NCBI RefSeq assembly: GCF_044324785.1
Contig: NZ_CP172127.1
Strand: one strand, 5' to 3'
From: Escherichia coli
GTDB lineage: Bacteria > Pseudomonadota > Gammaproteobacteria > Enterobacterales > Enterobacteriaceae
Length of the DNA stretch: 64,000 nt
Each line of letters begins with the position of its first letter. Positions within the stretch are counted from its first letter, which is position 1. Below, piece after piece: positions 168 to 13,041 of this stretch. The position numbers and the translations under genes are program-made. The notes beneath the pieces are model-generated. The model was not told where the DNA came from. It did no database searches and saw only the letters and a list, made by a program, of their open reading frames with translations.

Positions 168-316
168 TCCTCTGATTTACAAAAGACGCTAATTCGTCTT
201 CCATAAACCATGACGATTAAGATTTATACATAATGCGCTGCATTGAGGAATTCCCTGAATGTGACGCAAATCACTTCAAAGAGTGAGCAACAGTCAGTAT
301 CATCATGTGAGTTAAA

Positions 317-348
317 CCCTCGCCGCCTGACGGTGAGGGTTTTCTTTT
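317..348 (+). terminator. Intrinsic terminator-like hairpin (ccctcgccg/cggtgaggg) followed by a T-run, between rna and rnk
   Basis: Inverted repeat with 5-nt loop followed by ttttctttt, seen directly. Confidence 0.5.
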
Positions 349-396
349 GGGTATGTTTATCTGCGACACTCGCAGTACCGACGACATGGAGTAAAA

Positions 397-807
397 ATGT
401 CCAGACCAACTATCATCATTAACGACCTGGATGCCGAACGCATCGATATTCTGCTGGAGCAACCCGCCTATGCTGGTTTGCCAATCGCCGACGCGTTAAA
501 CGCAGAGTTGGATCGCGCCCAAATGTGTTCGCCAGAACAGATGCCACACGACGTGGTGACAATGAACAGCCGGGTTAAATTCCGCAATCTTAGCGATGGC
601 GAAGTGCGTGTGCGCACGCTGGTGTATCCGGCAAAAATGACCGATAGCAATACTCAGCTTTCCGTTATGGCTCCGGTAGGTGCCGCACTGCTGGGACTGC
701 GCGTTGGCGATTCCATTCACTGGGAACTTCCGGGCGGCGTTGCAACCCACCTTGAAGTGCTGGAACTCGAATACCAGCCAGAAGCTGCTGGCGACTACCT
801 GCTTTAA
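397..807 (+). CDS. rnk: Regulator of nucleoside diphosphate kinase (GreA/GreB-like), 136 aa
   Basis: Full-length ORF; protein [35 protein letters not shown]... recognised as E. coli Rnk. Confidence 0.93.
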
Positions 808-840
808 TCCCATCTGCACAAGCGATAACTCGCTTTGCCC

Positions 841-866
841 AGAGGATGCACTCGCATCCTCTTTCC
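841..866 (+). terminator. Putative rnk terminator hairpin (gaggatgc/gcatcctc)
   Basis: 8-bp inverted repeat directly after the rnk stop, followed by a short T-rich tract. Confidence 0.4.
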
Positions 867-1162
867 GCTCAAATATCAACCAGATTTATCATTTTGCTCT
901 TAAGCGCAGCATTCTAATCTGAACTGGTTATTCATCTGCGGAACCTCATATGAGCGAAGCTCTCGGTATCACTGCATTTTATATATTCATAGCCGCAATT
1001 ATTGTTGCTGCAGTGCTATACCTTGAACAACGCTGGTAGCGCCTGGTTTTATTTATTTTCCAGCTCAATAGCAAATTCAGATCAAATCAGCCTCGCAAAT
1101 CATAGATTCATAACCAATAATGTGCTGTTATGTATACATGCAAAAACAAGGAGAGAATGCTT

Positions 1163-1591
1163 ATGTACAAAACAATCATCATGCCAGTGGATGTTTTCGA
1201 AATGGAATTGAGCGACAAAGCGGTTCGCCACGCTGAATTCCTCGCCCAGGATGACGGAGTTATTCATCTACTTCACGTACTACCGGGGTCAGCCAGCCTG
1301 AGCCTGCACCGTTTTGCCGCTGATGTGCGTCGTTTTGAAGAGCATCTGCAACATGAAGCAGAAGAACGTCTGCAAACGATGGTCAGCCACTTCACCATCG
1401 ATCCTTCCCGCATTAAGCAACATGTCCGTTTTGGTAGTGTGCGGGATGAAGTTAACGAGTTAGCGAAAGAACTTGATGCAGATGTAGTAGTGATTGGTTC
1501 GCGTAACCCATCAATTTCAACTCATCTGTTGGGTTCTAACGCCTCGAGCGTAATCCGCCACGCCAATTTGCCGGTGCTGGTTGTGCGTTAA
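1163..1591 (+). CDS. uspG: Universal stress protein G (YbdQ), 142 aa
   Basis: ORF-track frame 1130..1591; start chosen at the internal ATG ([12 protein letters not shown]...) preceded by AAGGAG; sequence recognised as UspG. Confidence 0.92.
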
Positions 1592-1607
1592 TTGCCAGAA
1601 TAAGTCT

Positions 1608-1646
1608 CCCGCCCTGCCCGGAGCCATCCCGGCGGGGCTTTTTATT
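1608..1646 (+). terminator. Putative uspG terminator (GC-rich hairpin then ttttt)
   Basis: cccgccctgcccgg...cccggcggggc followed by tttttatt downstream of the uspG stop. Confidence 0.5.
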
Positions 1647-1651
1647 GCCAT

Positions 1652-1682
1652 AAAAAAGCCGCCAGGTTTGACCCCGGCGGCT
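1652..1682 (-). terminator. Putative ahpF terminator (agccgcc/ggcggct hairpin then T-run on minus strand)
   Basis: Reverse complement reads agccgccggggtcaaacctggcggctttttt, immediately downstream of the ahpF stop. Confidence 0.6.
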
Positions 1683-1711
1683 AAGCAATTGCAGGTGAAT
1701 CTTACTTCTTC

Positions 1712-3277
1712 TTATGCTGTTTTGGTGCGAATCAGGTAGTCAAAAGCACTCAGAGAGGCTTTGGCACCTTCGCCAGTGGCGATGATGATCTGCTTGTACG
1801 GAACCGTTGTACAGTCACCCGCTGCGAACACGCCTTTGACGTTGGTTTCGCATTTCGCATCAATGATAATCTCGCCCATGCGGTTACGTTCGACTGCGCC
1901 TTCGAGCCAGTTGGTGTTCGGCAGCAGACCAATCTGCACGAAAATACCGGCCAGTTCGATGTTGTGAATATCGCCGCTGACACGATCGCGATATTCCAGA
2001 CCAACGACTTTGCTGCCGTCGCCTTTCACTTCCGTAGTTTGCGCATTCAGAATAATGTCGACGTTTTTCAGGCTACGTAGTTTGTCCTGTAGAACCTGGT
2101 CGGCTTTCATTTCTGGCGCAAATTCCAGCAGAGTTACGTGCTCAACGATACCCGCCAGGTCGATTGCTGCTTCCACGCCGGAGTTACCGCCGCCGATAAC
2201 CGCTACGCGTTTGCCTTTAAACAGCGGGCCGTCGCAGTGCGGGCAGTAGGTCACGCCTTTGGTGCGATACTGATCTTCGCCCGGAACGTTCATGTTGCGC
2301 CATTTTGCACCGGTCGCCACGATAATGCTGCGTGCTTTCAGTACCGCGCCAGAAGCTGTTTCAATCTGATGCAGGCCACCTTCAACCGCTGCCGGGATCA
2401 GTTTGCTGGCGCTCTGGCTGTCGATCACATCAACGTCGTATTCATCAACGTGAACTTTCAGCGCACCTGCCAGTTTCTGGCCTTCGGTCTTCGGTACAGA
2501 AATGTAGTTTTCGATATCAACAGTATCGAGGATCTGACCACCAAAACGTTCGCCCATCAGACCGGTACGGATGCCTTTACGTGCGGAGTAAATTGCTGCC
2601 GCTGCACCCGCCGGGCCGGAACCAACGATTAATACGTCATAAGCATCACGCTTGTTCAGCTCTTCTGCCGCACGTTTTTCCGCGCCAGTATCAATTTTGG
2701 CGACGATTTCAGTCAACGTCATGCGACCCTGACCAAACTCTTTCCCGTTTACGAACACTGCCGGAACGCCCATCACGTTGCGATCGGTGATTTCGTTCTG
2801 GAAGGTGCCGCCGTCAATTGCAGTGTGCTTGATGCGCGGGTTCAGTACGCTCATCAGGTTCAGCGCCTGCACCACGTCCGGGCAGTTGTGGCAAGAGAGC
2901 GAGTAATAGGTTTCGAATTCAAAATCACCGTCAATATGGCGAATCTGCTCCAGCAGAGACTGCGCTTCTTTCGACGGATGACCACCGGTCCACAACAACG
3001 CCAGTACCAGCGAGGTAAACTCGTGGCCCAGCGGGGAACCTGCAAAACGTGGCCCCTGGTTAGAACCTGGGTTAGTGATCAGGAAAGACGGCTTACGCAC
3101 CGGCAAGCTGTTATCTTCTTTAAAGGTGACTTTGTCTGACAGTTCTGCGATTTCAGCCAACAGTTCCTTGATTTCTGCCGATTTAGCGCTGTCATCCAGC
3201 GTGGCAATTAACTCAACAGGCTTGGTCAATTTCTCAAGGTAAGCCTTGAGTTGAGTTTTCATATTTGTGTCGAGCAT
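1712..3277 (-). CDS. ahpF: Alkyl hydroperoxide reductase subunit F (NADH-dependent peroxiredoxin reductase), 521 aa
   Basis: ORF-track frame 1712..3307; start set at [17 protein letters not shown]... as in K-12 AhpF; CxxC and FAD/NAD-binding glycine motifs present. Confidence 0.95.
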
Positions 3278-3447
3278 GTTTATCTCCTGGGCTTTAAACA
3301 TCATCATGCAAGCGGCCTCTGCGGCTACCTGGATGCAGCTTGCATCATGGTGCGGGGAAGAAAATCGGGTGCCGCAGCACCCGAAGAATTAGGTGAATTT
3401 CCGAAGTATTTCGCGCCGGAGTTGGTAGCGCGAAAGACGAAGGAAAT

Positions 3448-4011
3448 TTAGATTTTACCAACCAGGTCCAGAGACGGAGCCAGAGTTGCTTCACCTTCTT
3501 TCCATTTAGCCGGGCAAACTTCACCTGGGTGAGAAGCTACGTACTGTGCTGCTTTGATTTTACGCAGCAGGTCAGACGCGTCACGGCCAATGCCTTCAGC
3601 GGTAACTTCGATTGCCTGGATGATACCCTGCGGGTCAACAACGAAGGTCGCACGGTCAGCCAGACCTTCATCTTCACGCATGTTGTCGAAGTTACGGGTC
3701 AGGGCGCCAGTCGGGTCGCCGATCATCGCATATTTGATTTTAGCGATGGTTTCAGAGCTGCTGTGCCATGCTTTGTGGGTGAAGTGAGTATCAGTAGATA
3801 CTGCGTATACGTCTACACCCAGTTTCTGCAGTTCTTCGTAGTGGTCAGCAACGTCACCCAGTTCGGTCGGGCATACGAAAGTAAAGTCAGCCGGGTAGAA
3901 GAAGAAGACGCTCCAGCGGCCTTCGGTATCTTTTTCGGTGATTTCGATGAATTCGCCGTTTTTGAATGCCTGGTTTTTAAAAGGTTTAATTTTGGTGTTA
4001 ATCAAGGACAT
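3448..4011 (-). CDS. ahpC: Alkyl hydroperoxide reductase subunit C (2-Cys peroxiredoxin), 187 aa
   Basis: [28 protein letters not shown]...FTFVCPTE... recognised as AhpC; GGAGG ribosome-binding site upstream. Confidence 0.97.
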
Positions 4012-4382: not shown

Positions 4383-5129
4383 ATGTTAAAAAAGATACTT
4401 TTACTGGCTCTGCTTCCTGCAATCGCCTTCGCAGAGGAACTTCCTGCTCCAGTAAAAGCGATTGAAAAACAGGGCATTACAATCATCAAAACGTTCGATG
4501 CCCCCGGAGGAATGAAAGGTTATCTCGGAAAGTATCAGGATATGGGCGTCACCATCTACCTGACTCCAGATGGTAAGCACGCTATCTCTGGTTACATGTA
4601 CAACGAGAAAGGTGAAAACCTGAGTAACACACTTATCGAAAAAGAAATTTACGCACCAGCCGGACGCGAAATGTGGCAACGGATGGAACAATCCCACTGG
4701 CTCCTCGACGGTAAAAAAGATGCGCCGGTCATTGTCTACGTTTTCGCCGATCCGTTCTGCCCATATTGTAAACAGTTCTGGCAGCAGGCGCGCCCGTGGG
4801 TAGATTCTGGCAAAGTGCAATTAAGAACATTGTTGGTTGGCGTTATCAAGCCAGAAAGCCCGGCGACAGCAGCGGCAATTCTTGCCTCCAAAGATCCCGC
4901 AAAAACCTGGCAAGAATATGAAGCCTCTGGTGGCAAGCTTAAGCTAAACGTGCCTGCAAACGTAAGTACAGAGCAAATGAAAGTGTTAAGCGACAACGAA
5001 AAACTCATGGACGATCTGGGGGCAAATGTCACACCAGCTATCTATTACATGAGTAAGGAAAATACACTGCAACAGGCCGTGGGGTTGCCCGATCAGAAAA
5101 CGCTTAATATCATTATGGGGAATAAATAA
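4383..5129 (+). CDS. dsbG: Periplasmic disulfide isomerase/thiol-disulfide oxidase DsbG, 248 aa precursor
   Basis: ORF-track frame 4323..5129; start at [17 protein letters not shown] (signal peptide); CPYC thioredoxin-fold motif present. Confidence 0.93.
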
Positions 5130-5141
5130 AAGATAATTCAT

Positions 5142-5178
5142 GGATGGTTGAAATATATCCCTATTTTTCAACCATCCT
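5142..5178. other. Long imperfect hairpin downstream of dsbG (ggatggttgaa...ttcaaccatcc)
   Basis: 11-bp inverted repeat with a 14-nt loop; no clear U-tract, so terminator function is uncertain. Confidence 0.35.
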
Positions 5179-5336
5179 AAAAAAGCATGAATTGCTCGCT
5201 CTGCCCTAAGTGGCTGTGCTATTTTAGAAAAACTTAATTCTGAATTAAGCAAAAAAACATAATACAAATAAATACAACAGCAACATTATTGATCAAGTGA
5301 ATGATTTATAGAAGAGATAATATAACGGAGTATGTT

Positions 5337-6239
5337 ATGGCGAATCTTTATGACCTAAAAAAATTTGATCTGAATTTACTGGTCATATTTGAGTGTATTT
5401 ATCAACATCTCAGCATTAGTAAAGCGGCAGAATCATTATATATAACGCCCTCTGCTGTTAGTCAGTCGTTACAACGTTTACGTGCGCAATTTAATGACCC
5501 GTTATTCATTCGCTCAGGGAAAGGTATCGCGCCGACTACGACAGGGTTAAATCTGCATCATCATCTTGAGAAAAATCTCAGAGGCATTGAACAAACGATC
5601 AATATTGTTAATAAGTCTGAGCTAAAGAAAAATTTTATTATCTACGGTCCTCAGCTTATTTCTTGTACTAATAACAACATGCTAATCCGCTGTCTTAGAC
5701 AAGATACTTCAATCGATATAGAATGCCATGACATACTGCTTTCAGCTGAAAATGCCGAAGAACTGTTGGTTCAACGCAAAACTGACCTGGCAATTACACT
5801 ACAACCAGTAATTAGCCGCTCTGTCATCTGCATGCCGTTACATACTATTCGCAATTCTCTTATATGTAGCAACAAACATCCTCGTATTACCGATACCAGT
5901 AACTATGAACAAATTATCGCCGAAGAATTCACCTTGTTGATATCTAAATCAGCAGGGATTGACGAAATTCAAATGGACATAGATGAACGTTTTATGAACC
6001 GTAAAGTTTCATTTCGCAGTTCTTCTTTGTTGACGATAATTAATAGTATTTCTGTTACTGACTTATTGGGCATTGTGCCCACCGAACTGTACGATTTACA
6101 TCGTGATTTTTTGAAGTTACAAGAGATAAAACTGGAACGACCACTTCCTGCGGTTAAACTTTATATTTCCTATAACAAGGCTTCGTTGAACAACCTTGTC
6201 TTCTCACGATTCATAGATCGTTTAAATGATAGCTTCTGA
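5337..6239 (+). CDS. ybdO: LysR-family transcriptional regulator YbdO (CitR), 300 aa
   Basis: ORF-track frame 5301..6239; start at MANLYDLKKFDLNLLVIFECIY...; N-terminal helix-turn-helix; gene is visibly AT-rich. Confidence 0.88.
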   Translation: MANLYDLKKFDLNLLVIFECIYQHLSISKAAESLYITPSAVSQSLQRLRAQFNDPLFIRSGKGIAPTTTGLNLHHHLEKNLRGIEQTINIVNKSELKKNFIIYGPQLISCTNNNMLIRCLRQDTSIDIECHDILLSAENAEELLVQRKTDLAITLQPVISRSVICMPLHTIRNSLICSNKHPRITDTSNYEQIIAEEFTLLISKSAGIDEIQMDIDERFMNRKVSFRSSSLLTIINSISVTDLLGIVPTELYDLHRDFLKLQEIKLERPLPAVKLYISYNKASLNNLVFSRFIDRLNDSF

Positions 6240-9476: not shown

Positions 9477-10565
9477 ATGCCTCACAATCCTATCCGCGTG
9501 GTCGTCGGCCCGGCTAACTACTTTTCACATCCAGGAAGTTTCAATCACCTGCATGATTTTTTCACTGATGAACAACTTTCTCGCGCGGTGTGGGTCTACG
9601 GCGAACGCGCCATTGCTGCGGCGCAAACCAAACTTCCGCCAGCGTTTGAACTGCCAGGGGCAAAGCATATTTTGTTTCGCGGTCATTGCAGCGAAAGCGA
9701 TGTACAGAAACTGGCGGCTGACTCCGGTGACGACCGCAGCGTGGTGATTGGCGTCGGCGGCGGCGCACTGCTCGACACCGCGAAAGCCCTCGCCCGCCGT
9801 CTCGGTCTGCCGTTTGTTGCCGTTCCGACGATCGCCGCTACCTGCGCCGCCTGGACACCGCTCTCTGTCTGGTATAACGATGCCGGACAGGCGCTGCATT
9901 ATGAGATTTTCGACGACGCCAATTTTATGGTGCTGGTGGAACCGGAGATTATCCTCAATGCGCCGCAAGAATATCTGCTGGCGGGGATCGGTGACACGCT
10001 GGCGAAATGGTATGAAGCGGTGGTGCTGGCCCCGCAACCAGAAACGTTGCCGTTAACCGTGCGCCTGGGGATTAATAACGCGCAGGCCATTCGCGACGTC
10101 TTGTTAAACAATAGCGAACAGGCGCTTGCCGATCAGCAAAATCAACAGTTAACGCAATCATTTTGCGATGTGGTGGATGCGATTATCGCCGGAGGTGGAA
10201 TGGTCGGTGGTCTGGGCGATCGTTTTACGCGTGTGGCGGCGGCCCATGCCGTGCATAACGGTCTGACCGTGCTGCCGCAAACCGAGAAGTTTCTTCACGG
10301 TACCAAAGTCGCCTACGGAATTCTGGTGCAAAGCGCCTTGCTGGGTCAGGATGATGTGCTGGCACAATTAACCGGGGCGTATCAGCGTTTTCATCTGCCG
10401 ACTACGCTGGCGGAGCTGGAAGTGGATATCAATAATCAGGCGGAGATCGACAAAGTGATTGCCCACACCTTACGTCCGGTGGAATCCATTCATTACCTGC
10501 CAGTCACGCTGACACCAGATACGTTACGTGCAGCGTTCGAAAAAGTGGAATCGTTTAAAGCCTGA
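9477..10565 (+). CDS. ybdH: Iron-containing alcohol/hydroxycarboxylate dehydrogenase YbdH (HcxA), 362 aa
   Basis: Full ORF; glycerol-dehydrogenase-like GGGxxxD region; recognised as YbdH. Confidence 0.9.
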   Translation: MPHNPIRVVVGPANYFSHPGSFNHLHDFFTDEQLSRAVWVYGERAIAAAQTKLPPAFELPGAKHILFRGHCSESDVQKLAADSGDDRSVVIGVGGGALLDTAKALARRLGLPFVAVPTIAATCAAWTPLSVWYNDAGQALHYEIFDDANFMVLVEPEIILNAPQEYLLAGIGDTLAKWYEAVVLAPQPETLPLTVRLGINNAQAIRDVLLNNSEQALADQQNQQLTQSFCDVVDAIIAGGGMVGGLGDRFTRVAAAHAVHNGLTVLPQTEKFLHGTKVAYGILVQSALLGQDDVLAQLTGAYQRFHLPTTLAELEVDINNQAEIDKVIAHTLRPVESIHYLPVTLTPDTLRAAFEKVESFKA

Positions 10566-10574
10566 CGTACATAT

Positions 10575-10772
10575 TTAGCAGCAGCGCGCGCCGCCTTTTC
10601 CACCGTAGCGCGCGTCCTGCCGCTCACGGAAAAACTCCTCGTAGGTCATCGGCGTTTGATCGGGATGGTTTACCCGCATATGTTCGACATAGTTGTCGTA
10701 ATCAGGCATACCAATCATCAGCTTCGCCGCCTGACCTAAATATTTTCCGGCTTTTGCCAGTGAATCAAACAT
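10575..10772 (-). CDS. ybdD: Small DUF466 protein YbdD, 65 aa
   Basis: [58 protein letters not shown]...; downstream of cstA as in K-12. Confidence 0.85.
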
Positions 10773-10834
10773 CAATACCTCCGGTAAACAGGTTGCTGAT
10801 AGAGTGCATTAATAGCTATCAACGCGCTCGGTCA

Positions 10835-10935
10835 GTCCCCTCGCCCCACCGGGGAGAGGGTTAGGGTGAGGGGGAACCCTCGGCACCATGCCAACTTTCG
10901 CCAACATTCGCCAACATTCCCCCCTCACTCTGACT
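10835..10935. repeat. GC-rich imperfect-palindrome element with tandem 'ttcgccaaca' direct repeat, in the cstA-ybdD spacer
   Basis: ccctcgccccaccggggagagggttagggtgaggggg contains nested inverted repeats; cgccaacattcgccaacatt direct repeat follows. Confidence 0.4.
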
Positions 10936-13041
10936 TTAGTGCGCGCCTTTCGCCTGCGCCACGATCTCCTCGACATTTTCCGGCATTGGCTCATACGGCG
11001 TTTCTTTCGCCGTTGGCTTCGGCTCTTTCAATGCCGCCAGTGCCGTCTTAATCGAGAACAGTGCCAGAACCACCACGACCACCATAAAGAAGATGGTTAA
11101 CCCGGCATCAAGACGGTTGTTGAACACCAGTTGCGCCAGTTGTGACTCAGTATACTGCGATGGAATATTGCCGCTGTCGATCATTGCCTGGAACTTGTTA
11201 GCAATCGCCAGGAAGCCGACTTTCGCATCCGGGCTAAACGCTTTCTGCCAGCCTGCGGTCAGGGTACAAATCAGCAGCCAGGCCGTTGGTACCAGCGCCA
11301 CCCAGGCGTAACGTTGACGTTTCATTTTGAACAGCACCACAGCACAGAGCATCAGCGCCATCCCTGCCAGCATCTGGTTGGCAATACCAAACAGCGGCCA
11401 CAAGGTGTTAATACCGCCCAGCGGATCGACCACACCCTGATGGAGGAAGTAGCCCCACGCCAGCACGCACAGCGCCGTTGCCAGCAGGTTAGCAGGCAGT
11501 GAATCGGTCCGCTTCAGGCCAGGAGACACCACGCCCAGCAGATCCTGCAACATAAAGCGCGCAGCACGCGTACCCGCATCTACCGCCGTCAGAATAAACA
11601 GAGCTTCAAACAGAATGGCGAAGTGATACCAGAACGCCACATCCATCATGCCGCCCAGCGCGCCGTGCAGAATGTAGGCCATCCCCACCGCCAGCGTCGG
11701 CGCACCGCCCGCACGGGAAATGATCGACTGTTCACCCACTTCGCTGGCAATCTGGTTGAGCGTATCTGGTGTAATGCTAAAGCCCCAGCTACTCACCACC
11801 TGCGCGGCAGAAGCGACTACATCCGCCGTCCCTGCAGGAGCCAGCACCGCCATCGGGCTGTTCATGGCGAAGTACACACCTGGATCGATGATACAGGCGG
11901 AAACCAGCGCCATAATCGCCACGAAGGATTCCATCAACATCCCACCGTAGCCGATAAAGCACGCCTGCCCTTCGTTCGCCAGCATCTTCGGCGTGGTGCC
12001 GGAAGAGATCAGCGCATGGAAGCCAGACACCGCGCCACAGGCGATGGTGATAAACAGGAACGGGAACAGGTTACCGGTCCATACCGGGCCAGTGCCATCG
12101 ACAAATTTAGTTAGCGCAGGCATGGTCAGCGTCGGGCGCATAATCAAAATGCCTACCGCCAGACCGACGATGGTCCCGATTTTCAGGAAGGTTGAGAGGT
12201 AGTCGCGCGGGGCCAGCAACAGCCACACCGGCAGCACCGCCGCCACAAAACCGTAACCCACCAGCATCCAGGTCAGCTGCACGCCGGTAAAGTCAAAGTA
12301 CGGTGCCCAGGTCGGACTTTCTGCCACCCAGCCGCCAGAGATAATGGCGAAAATCAGGAACACCAAACCGATGACCGACACTTCGCCAATACGCCCCGGA
12401 CGCAGATAGCGCAGGTAGATCCCCATAAACAGCGCCAGCGGAATAGTGAACGCAACGGTATACGTTCCCCACGGGCTATGAGTCAGGGCTTTCACCACGA
12501 TCATCGCCAGTACTGCAAGGATAATGACCATGATCATAAAGCAGGCCACCAGCGCTATCACCCCGGCGGTTGGCCCCATCTCTTCTTTGACCAGCTCACC
12601 CAGCGAGCGACCGTCACGGCGCGTAGAAACAAACAGCACCATGAAATCCTGCACCGCACCGGCGAGAACCACCCCGGCGAGCAGCCAGATCATCCCTGGC
12701 AGGTAACCCATTTGCGCCGCCAGTACCGGCCCCACCAGCGGGCCAGCTCCGGCAATGGCCGCAAAATGGTGACCGAACAGCACTTTCTTGTCCGTCGGCA
12801 CATAGTCCAGCCCGTCGTTATGGCGCACCGCGGGCGTCATACGCGTCGGGTCAACCGCCAGCACATTTTTGGCGATATACAGACCATAAAAACGGTAAGC
12901 GATCAGATAGATACAGACCGACGCCACCACAATCCACAGCGCATTGATCTGTTCCCCACGATTTAAAGCAATGTATCCCAGAGCAAATGCTCCCATTACA
13001 GAGAGCACTGTCCAGACGAGGTATTTCCCTGATTTGTTCAT
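10936..13041 (-). CDS. cstA: Carbon starvation protein A (pyruvate/peptide transporter), 701 aa
   Basis: Full ORF, polytopic membrane protein; MNKSGKYLVWTVLSVMGAFALGYIALNRGEQINALWIV... recognised. Confidence 0.96.
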   Translation of the reverse strand: MNKSGKYLVWTVLSVMGAFALGYIALNRGEQINALWIVVASVCIYLIAYRFYGLYIAKNVLAVDPTRMTPAVRHNDGLDYVPTDKKVLFGHHFAAIAGAGPLVGPVLAAQMGYLPGMIWLLAGVVLAGAVQDFMVLFVSTRRDGRSLGELVKEEMGPTAGVIALVACFMIMVIILAVLAMIVVKALTHSPWGTYTVAFTIPLALFMGIYLRYLRPGRIGEVSVIGLVFLIFAIISGGWVAESPTWAPYFDFTGVQLTWMLVGYGFVAAVLPVWLLLAPRDYLSTFLKIGTIVGLAVGILIMRPTLTMPALTKFVDGTGPVWTGNLFPFLFITIACGAVSGFHALISSGTTPKMLANEGQACFIGYGGMLMESFVAIMALVSACIIDPGVYFAMNSPMAVLAPAGTADVVASAAQVVSSWGFSITPDTLNQIASEVGEQSIISRAGGAPTLAVGMAYILHGALGGMMDVAFWYHFAILFEALFILTAVDAGTRAARFMLQDLLGVVSPGLKRTDSLPANLLATALCVLAWGYFLHQGVVDPLGGINTLWPLFGIANQMLAGMALMLCAVVLFKMKRQRYAWVALVPTAWLLICTLTAGWQKAFSPDAKVGFLAIANKFQAMIDSGNIPSQYTESQLAQLVFNNRLDAGLTIFFMVVVVVLALFSIKTALAALKEPKPTAKETPYEPMPENVEEIVAQAKGAH

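What the first reader, a model, noticed from the sequence alone, without database searches (positions are those of the whole stretch)
808..1162. Only about 355 bp between rnk and uspG: the K-12 ybdR gene appears to be absent
From memory of K-12 gene order, a roughly 1.2-kb gene for a Zn-dependent dehydrogenase (ybdR) lies between uspG and rnk. Here the two genes are separated by a short spacer with a terminator-like hairpin and no credible ORF, suggesting a strain-specific deletion or a lineage that never acquired it.
Basis: inference. Interest (0 to 1): 0.3.

Follow-up and report, generated by a model that had tools for sequence, protein, structure and literature searches.

The report
Common ybdR-less rnk–yldA–uspG haplotype

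Summary
K-12 does have rnk–yldA–ybdR–uspG, with a 1689-bp interval.

- **"No credible ORF" is wrong.** The spacer holds yldA (950–1039, 29 aa). It passes the NCBIfam YldA equivalog cut-off and shows purifying selection across Escherichia.
- **"Strain-specific deletion" is wrong.** 1820 of 5426 complete E. coli genomes share this arrangement, and 3605 carry ybdR, so the two sets are complementary. CFT073, 042, IAI39 and SMS-3-5 match the window. So do E. albertii and two divergent Escherichia lineages.

No ybdR remnant is detectable here. The same test finds a 56-nt scar in a ybdR-less Enterobacter asburiae.

The K-12 form is not this form plus a clean insert. 276 bp here correspond to 1611 bp in K-12, including a very divergent yldA allele (54% nt identity). 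The break falls just after the rnk terminator hairpins, and homology resumes 18 nt before the uspG start codon.

Most likely this is the ancestral Escherichia haplotype, and the K-12-type block entered the A/B1/E lineage later. This is ordinary and already annotated in RefSeq, so interest is low.

The parts
397..807 (+). rnk (nucleoside diphosphate kinase regulator), 136 aa
   Evidence: ORF. RefSeq annotation of matching genomes. The homologous flank 397-868 is 99.4% identical to K-12; the rnk CDS itself is 99.5% identical.
816..862 (+). rnk terminator region: two adjacent hairpins (816-838 and 841-862) followed by UUUCC. It lies inside the part shared with K-12.
   Evidence: Fold (-24.2 kcal/mol, z = -6.05, 0 of 200 shuffles as stable). 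Not called by the terminator scan because the T-tail is weak.
869..1144 (.). Haplotype-specific segment of 276 bp, corresponding to 1611 bp in K-12 (L001 4070-5680). blastn detects no similarity between the two.
   Evidence: homology 397-868 at 99.4%, resuming at 1145; identity to the K-12 counterpart is 63%, the level of shuffled sequence.
950..1039 (+). yldA, 29-aa small membrane protein (MSEALGITAFYIFIAAIIVAAVLYLEQRW), the same protein as WP_001287361.1
   Evidence: Annotated at this position in AR_0013, CFT073, IAI39, SMS-3-5 and 042. NCBIfam NF041476 gives 59 bits against a cut-off of 45. Across three other Escherichia lineages, 14 codon changes are synonymous and 1 is not. 29-aa homologues sit at the same site in more than 30 enterobacterial species.
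1116..1121 (+). Inferred uspG -10 hexamer AATAAT. It aligns with TATAAT of K-12, 42 nt upstream of the ATG.
   Evidence: Alignment A1: T at 1118 and 1121 is invariant and A at 1117 nearly invariant in 13 loci of both haplotypes. This is inference only. The promoter scan found no site at its 9-of-12 threshold.
1148..1153 (+). uspG ribosome-binding site AAGGAG, 9 nt before the ATG
   Evidence: Sequence. The GGAG core is invariant in alignment A1.
1163..1591 (+). uspG (universal stress protein G), 142 aa. Its nucleotide sequence is a mosaic of old alleles.
   Evidence: It is 93.0% nt identical to K-12 and 94.4% to AR_0013. Divergence is concentrated at the 5' end and at nt 280-426 of the gene.

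Best explanation
The 355-bp rnk-uspG interval is an intact, functional intergenic region, not the site of a recent deletion.

It carries, in order:
- the rnk terminator hairpins (816-862);
- the 29-codon small membrane-protein gene yldA (950-1039);
- an unstructured stretch with no terminator;
- the uspG promoter and ribosome-binding site (about 1116-1153).

It is one of two deeply diverged haplotypes that split E. coli:
- The ybdR-less form seen here is found in roughly a third of complete genomes. That set includes reference strains CFT073 (B2), 042 (D), and IAI39 and SMS-3-5 (F).
- The K-12 form is found in about two thirds, including A, B1 and E strains. It has a very different yldA allele, convergent ybdR, and a different uspG upstream region.

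E. albertii and two other non-coli Escherichia lineages carry the window form at species-level divergence. It is therefore most likely the ancestral Escherichia state. The K-12-type block would then have replaced it, by homologous recombination through rnk and uspG, in the ancestor of the A/B1/E group.

Shown here: gene content, haplotype frequencies, homology boundaries, absence of scars, and selection on yldA. Inferred: the polarity of the change, the promoter position, and possible yldA-uspG co-transcription.
For: - Gene map and 355-bp interval.
- K-12 order rnk-yldA-ybdR-uspG.
- 1820 of 5426 genomes cover at least 80% of window 300-1700, and 1816 cover the whole spacer.
- ybdR is present in 3605 of 5426 genomes. 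The two sets are complementary (1820 + 3605 = 5425).
- CFT073, IAI39, SMS-3-5 and 042 have rnk-yldA-uspG with the identical YldA protein.
- K-12, E24377A, O157:H7 and O104:H4 have the break or ybdR.
- E. albertii, Escherichia sp. MOD1-EC7003 and the roughly 94%-identical SCPM-O-B-8794 have 353-355-bp spacers with the same YldA. Their identity to the window in the haplotype-specific segment is 90-94%.
- Homology to K-12 breaks at 868 and resumes at 1145.
- yldA of the window and of K-12 are 54% identical in nucleotides, less than either is to Citrobacter alleles.
- No ybdR remnant was found in any Escherichia spacer. The same profile finds a 56-nt scar in E. asburiae TN152 at E = 9e-7.
- yldA is a family member and under purifying selection.
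- YldA was shown to be expressed in K-12 by chromosomal tagging (PMC6001520).
- The yldA-uspG stretch has no terminator and is less structured than shuffles, z = +2.0.
- A -10-like hexamer and the RBS are conserved in both haplotypes.
Against: - ybdR sits at the same site in Salmonella, Citrobacter sedlakii, Enterobacter and others. K-12 ybdR is about as diverged from them (79.5% nt) as the flanking genes are (77-83%). That pattern would also fit vertical inheritance of ybdR with an old loss in the window-type lineage.
- No donor for the K-12 block was identified.
- E. fergusonii, E. marmotae, E. ruysiae and Shigella were not recovered by the one genome scan.
- Phylogroup labels of the reference strains come from my own knowledge. 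Only eight strains were checked individually.
- The promoter and co-transcription statements rest on sequence alone.
Confidence: 0.68

Rival explanations
1. Ancient deletion. ybdR was present in the common ancestor of Escherichia, Salmonella and Citrobacter. The window-type haplotype descends from an old loss of ybdR whose scars have eroded. The K-12 lineage simply retained the ancestral gene.
For: - ybdR occupies the identical slot, convergent to yldA and divergent from uspG, in 23 of the loci from other genera.
- K-12 ybdR is 79-80% nt identical to the Salmonella and C. sedlakii copies, similar to rnk (82%) and uspG (77-79%).
- Clean ybdR indels on an otherwise homologous background exist within Enterobacter, Lelliottia and Citrobacter.
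- One ybdR-less Enterobacter keeps a deletion remnant, so deletions at this site do happen.
Against: - It requires either independent losses in E. albertii, two further Escherichia lineages and the basal E. coli phylogroups, or a polymorphism kept through several speciations.
- It does not explain why yldA and the uspG upstream region of K-12 are unalignable with the window type, while rnk next door is 99.5% identical.
- No remnant was found in any Escherichia spacer.
Confidence: 0.2
2. Recent strain-specific deletion of ybdR from a K-12-like locus.
For: Only the size difference supports it: 355 bp against 1689 bp.
Against: - The spacer is 100% identical to AR_0013 and at least 98.9% identical in the listed full-length hits among the about 1816 genomes that cover it.
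- It is present in other Escherichia species.
- The window's yldA is a different allele from K-12's, so no deletion of the K-12 sequence can produce it.
- No ybdR remnant is present.
Confidence: 0.01
3. Balanced or trans-species polymorphism. Both haplotypes, and independently the presence of ybdR and of yldA, are kept or repeatedly exchanged among enterobacterial genera, because alternative wiring of uspG, yldA and ybdR is favoured in different niches.
For: - Four states occur across genera: short spacer, yldA only, yldA plus ybdR, and ybdR only.
- YldA and the uspG-upstream sequences fall into two types, each spanning Escherichia and Citrobacter.
- uspG itself is a mosaic of old, mostly synonymous alleles.
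Against: - Within E. coli the split, as far as checked, follows the phylogroup backbone rather than being mixed within lineages. That pattern needs no selection.
- No functional data were examined.
- The short, fast-evolving sequences make the two 'types' weakly resolved.
Confidence: 0.1

Closest known systems
rnk-yldA-uspG locus of E. coli CFT073 (NC_004431.1 683364-684559), and likewise of 042, IAI39, SMS-3-5 and AR_0013
   Same: Same gene order and same YldA protein (WP_001287361.1). The interval is the same 355 bp (measured for AR_0013 and CFT073), and the spacer sequence is 100% identical to AR_0013.
   Different: The window's uspG 3' third and its ahpF-ahpC spacer carry other alleles. 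No complete genome matches the first 25 kb at 99% or better.
rnk-yldA-ybdR-uspG locus of E. coli K-12 MG1655
   Same: rnk, its terminator hairpins, a 29-codon yldA at about the same distance from rnk, the uspG RBS and the uspG coding frame.
   Different: - K-12 has ybdR (412 aa, Zn-dependent alcohol dehydrogenase) convergent to yldA. The pair is listed as a convergent 'excludon' in PMC12288877.
- Its yldA allele is 54% nt identical to the window's.
- Its uspG upstream region is of the other type.
ybdR-less locus of Enterobacter asburiae TN152 (L053)
   Same: rnk-yldA-uspG without ybdR, with a spacer of 399 bp.
   Different: It keeps a 56-nt remnant of the ybdR 3' end right after yldA. That makes it a real deletion derivative of a ybdR-bearing locus. 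The window has no such remnant.

Membership tests
YldA small membrane protein (NCBIfam NF041476, equivalog) | Full-length match to the 29-position profile above the curated cut-off | tested here: met
   59 bits, E = 3.2e-16, residues 1-29 on profile positions 1-29, cut-off 45. The K-12 YldA scores 57.9.
YldA small membrane protein (NCBIfam NF041476, equivalog) | Conserved genomic position downstream of rnk, on the same strand | tested here: met
   The window ORF starts 143 nt after the rnk stop, against 138 nt in K-12. Homologous 29-aa ORFs lie at the same place in more than 30 species.
YldA small membrane protein (NCBIfam NF041476, equivalog) | Evidence that the ORF is a coding gene (selection, expression) | tested here: met
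   Selection: 14 synonymous against 1 non-synonymous codon changes versus three Escherichia lineages. Expression was shown only for the K-12 allele (PMC6001520) and was not tested for this allele.
YbdR (Zn-dependent alcohol dehydrogenase) gene or pseudogene | Any detectable coding or nucleotide similarity to ybdR between rnk and uspG | tested here: not met
   - blastn with word size 7: nothing significant.
- tblastn over the whole window: best E = 0.15, elsewhere in the window.
- nhmmer --max with a 23-species ybdR profile: no hit in the window spacer at E <= 10. The positive control L053 gave E = 9e-7.
Recent deletion allele of the K-12-type locus | Flanks collinear and near-identical to K-12 up to a single junction | tested here: not met
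   276 bp between the homology breakpoints (869-1144) have no K-12 counterpart detectable by blastn, and they include a different yldA allele.
Rho-independent terminator (of rnk) | Stable GC-rich hairpin followed by a U-tract | tested here: inconclusive
   The hairpins are stable (z = -6.05). The tail is only UUUCC, and the consensus scan did not call it.
Sigma-70 promoter for uspG | -35 and -10 hexamers with 16-18 nt spacing, and a mapped transcription start | tested here: inconclusive
   No site reached the scan's 9-of-12 threshold. A -10-like AATAAT at 1116-1121 is positionally conserved with K-12 TATAAT. No transcription-start data were examined.

The most novel reading that the evidence does not exclude
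The rnk-uspG interval is a long-lived recombination and replacement hotspot of Enterobacteriaceae. In it, a ybdR cassette and the tiny yldA gene are gained or lost independently at fixed junctions.

E. coli would then be split along its deepest phylogroup division by an introgressed block from an unsampled, non-coli donor. That block carries a divergent yldA, ybdR and a new uspG upstream region, and was fixed in the ancestor of A/B1/C/E.

As a consequence, uspG and yldA would be wired differently in B2/D/F strains (possible yldA-uspG co-transcription) than in K-12-like strains (a yldA/ybdR convergent excludon).
Probability: 0.3. Interest if true: 0.3.

Novelty: already known. Interest (0 to 1): 0.1.

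Why it matters
It matters little. It is a reminder that K-12 gene order is not the species default. Here K-12 probably carries the derived state, and the 'missing' gene is an accessory gene absent from a third of E. coli genomes.

Two practical points follow:
- Annotation by eye misses 29-codon genes such as yldA.
- Results on yldA, ybdR and uspG expression from K-12, such as the ybdR-yldA excludon, cannot be carried over unchanged to B2/D/F strains such as CFT073. Those strains lack the convergent partner and have a different uspG upstream sequence.

Tried and rejected
- **Rfam on 700-1300, both strands, E <= 1.** The only hit was a sub-threshold chance match to a eukaryotic snoRNA model (27 bits against a gathering score of 45). 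Rejected.
- **Sigma-70 promoter scan of 780-1720.** No sites. The promoter statements are therefore only alignment-based inference.
- **Terminator between yldA and uspG.** None found. The stretch is less structured than shuffles.
- **ybdR remnants.** Searched by blastn, tblastn and a DNA profile. None in the window.
- **Recent horizontal donor for the K-12 ybdR block among 80 enterobacterial loci.** None. The best nucleotide identity is about 80%, the same as the flanking genes.
- **Literature on ybdR presence/absence or phylogroup association.** No paper combines 'ybdR' and 'phylogroup', and the 18 papers mentioning ybdR do not address it.
- **UMN026 (NC_011751.1).** Not in the collection. 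Strain 042 was used instead for phylogroup D.
- **One script timed out** and was redone with a faster aligner.
- **K-12 ahpF columns are invalid**, because the locus is cut inside ahpF. They were ignored.

Full report
**What is in the sequence.** The window starts in the 3' end of rna. It then carries rnk (397-807, +), a 355-bp interval (808-1162), uspG (1163-1591, +), ahpF (1712-3277, -) and ahpC (3448-4011, -). The longer ORF that starts at 1130 is not the uspG start. RefSeq annotates the 142-aa form. Conservation across 13 loci begins at the AAGGAG ribosome-binding site (1148-1153) and the ATG at 1163. The measured spacer of 355 bp is therefore correct.

In MG1655 the order is rnk, yldA, ybdR (opposite strand), uspG, with 1689 bp between rnk and uspG. 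ybdR is absent here:
- There is no YbdR-like coding potential anywhere in the 64 kb (best tblastn E = 0.15).
- A DNA profile built from ybdR of 23 species finds nothing in the window's spacer, even with all filters off and E <= 10.
- The same search finds a 56-nt remnant of the ybdR 3' end in a ybdR-less Enterobacter asburiae (L053, E = 9e-7). That remnant is visible by eye right after its yldA stop codon. The negative result for the window is therefore meaningful.

**The spacer is not empty.**
- Right after rnk come two stable hairpins (816-838 and 841-862; -24.2 kcal/mol, z = -6.05). The U-tail is weak (UUUCC) and the consensus scan does not call it.
- At 950-1039 there is a 29-codon ORF, MSEALGITAFYIFIAAIIVAAVLYLEQRW. 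RefSeq annotates exactly this ORF as 'small membrane protein YldA' (WP_001287361.1) in AR_0013, CFT073, IAI39, SMS-3-5 and 042.
- It scores 59 bits on the NCBIfam equivalog NF041476, whose cut-off is 45.
- Against E. albertii and two other divergent Escherichia lineages it shows 15 nucleotide differences in 15 codons, 14 of them synonymous.
- The flanking non-coding DNA is 82-83% identical to E. albertii, while yldA is 92% identical. This is a gene under purifying selection.
- YldA of K-12 was shown to be made by chromosomal epitope tagging (VanOrsdel et al. 2018, PMC6001520).
- Between yldA and uspG there is no terminator, and the RNA is less structured than shuffled controls (z = +2.0).
- A -10-like hexamer AATAAT (1116-1121) aligns with TATAAT of K-12 and has invariant key positions in all 13 aligned loci. 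I take it as the uspG promoter, by inference only.

**How the window differs from K-12.** It is not a simple indel.
- Homology at 99.4% runs from rnk to position 868, six bases past the second hairpin. It resumes only at 1145, 18 nt before the uspG ATG.
- In between, 276 bp here stand against 1611 bp in K-12, with no similarity that blastn can find.
- Both segments nevertheless contain a yldA. The K-12 allele (MAEAFYILIGFLIMAAIIVMAVLYLENHS) is 54% identical in nucleotides to the window allele. That is less than either is to Citrobacter alleles (68% and 74%).
- The uspG upstream region also comes in two types. The window type is shared with E. albertii, other Escherichia lineages and some Citrobacter. 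The K-12 type is shared with Salmonella, the C. amalonaticus/sedlakii group and Enterobacter.
- No deletion of the K-12 sequence can generate the window sequence.

**Frequency and distribution.**
- Of 5426 complete E. coli genomes, 1820 match window 300-1700 over at least 80% of its length. The rest break at query position 569, which is window 868.
- 1816 genomes hold the whole spacer, at 98.9-100% identity in the full-length hits listed.
- ybdR is found in 3605 genomes. The two classes add up to 5425 of 5426.
- Window type: CFT073, 042, IAI39, SMS-3-5.
- ybdR type: K-12, E24377A, O104:H4, O157:H7.
- By my knowledge of these strains' phylogroups, that is B2, D and F against A, B1 and E, the deepest split of the species.
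- Outside E. coli, three lineages all have a 353-355-bp spacer with the same YldA: E. albertii, Escherichia sp. MOD1-EC7003, and a record labelled E. coli that is only about 94% identical.
- Their haplotype-specific segment is 90-94% identical to the window, in line with the flanking genes.

**Polarity.** The simplest reading is that the window form is the ancestral Escherichia form. The K-12-type block (divergent yldA, ybdR, other uspG upstream type) would then have replaced it once, by recombination through the conserved flanks, on the branch leading to A/B1/E.

The main rival is an old loss of an ancestral ybdR:
- ybdR sits in the same slot in Salmonella, C. sedlakii, Enterobacter, Leclercia and others.
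- K-12 ybdR is as far from those copies (about 79.5% nt) as the flanking genes are. No recent donor is visible.
- Clean ybdR indels, including one with a scar, occur within Enterobacter, Lelliottia and Citrobacter.

Against the rival stand the number of independent losses, or the long-kept polymorphism, that it needs within Escherichia. It also fails to explain the unalignable yldA region sitting next to a 99.5%-identical rnk. I put about 0.65 on 'K-12 block acquired' and about 0.2 on 'ancient loss'. A recent strain-specific deletion is excluded.

**Wider picture.** Across 80 enterobacterial loci, four states exist:
- a 146-205-bp spacer with neither gene (Kluyvera, Kosakonia, the C. freundii group);
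- about 355 bp with yldA only;
- yldA plus ybdR;
- ybdR without a recognisable yldA (Salmonella, some Enterobacter).

The interval is thus a variable spot in the family. What is seen here needs nothing beyond ordinary homologous exchange and occasional deletion.

**Comparison with what is known.** The locus is the same as the annotated rnk-yldA-uspG locus of CFT073 and more than 1800 other RefSeq genomes. In K-12, ybdR and yldA are listed as a convergent excludon (PMC12288877). That relationship cannot exist here, and yldA could instead be read through into uspG (inference). I found no paper that discusses the ybdR polymorphism. However, the arrangement itself is in public annotation, so I rate it as already known.

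**Limits.**
- The single genome-collection scan did not return E. fergusonii, E. marmotae, E. ruysiae or the usual E. coli representative.
- Only eight E. coli strains were checked individually.
- Phylogroup labels are from memory.
- No transcript data were examined.

**Verdict.** The feature is ordinary. Interest 0.1.

Noticed in passing
window 1445-1591 (uspG 3' third): uspG is a mosaic of old alleles, independent of the ybdR haplotype. In gene nt 280-390 and 390-426 the window is 89% and 78% identical to AR_0013, and 84% and 97% identical to K-12. The proteins differ by only 3 residues. The synonymous divergence within the species is unusually high.
   Followed up: partly
window 3278-3447 (ahpF-ahpC intergenic region): The length is polymorphic: 170 bp here and in CFT073, 128 bp in AR_0013 and IAI39, 244 bp in 042. 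The difference is a replaced stretch at the ahpC-proximal end.
   Followed up: partly
window 1-25000: None of 5426 complete E. coli genomes is 99% or more identical to the first 25 kb. The best is 98.3% (strain N3) and most top hits are 97.8%. Against CFT073, 500-bp bins between 5 and 17 kb run at mostly 95-98%, with the lowest ordinary bin at 92% and outlier bins at 5001-5500 (91%) and 10501-11000 (82%). The source lineage or its recombination history is unusual.
   Followed up: partly
L053 1057-1125 (Enterobacter asburiae TN152): This ybdR-less locus keeps a 56-nt remnant of the ybdR 3' end directly after yldA (nhmmer E = 9e-7). It is a genuine deletion scar, unlike the window.
   Followed up: yes
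window 950-1039 (YldA protein): YldA also scores on the NCBIfam model for the small membrane protein YoaI (NF041475; 30 bits, below the cut-off of 45). This suggests the two small proteins are related.
   Followed up: no
loci L003-L082 (rnk-uspG interval in other genera): yldA and ybdR vary independently across Enterobacteriaceae, giving four states. Spacers are 146-205 bp where both are absent. C. amalonaticus loci L012 and L017 have unexplained longer spacers of 481 and 513 bp without ybdR.
   Followed up: partly
NZ_LR890350.1 98573-99141 (hit H30): A 300-kb record in the E. coli collection carries an rnk only 81.5% identical to the window, and a few rnk matches are counted on plasmids. These may be non-coli or misassigned replicons.
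   Followed up: no
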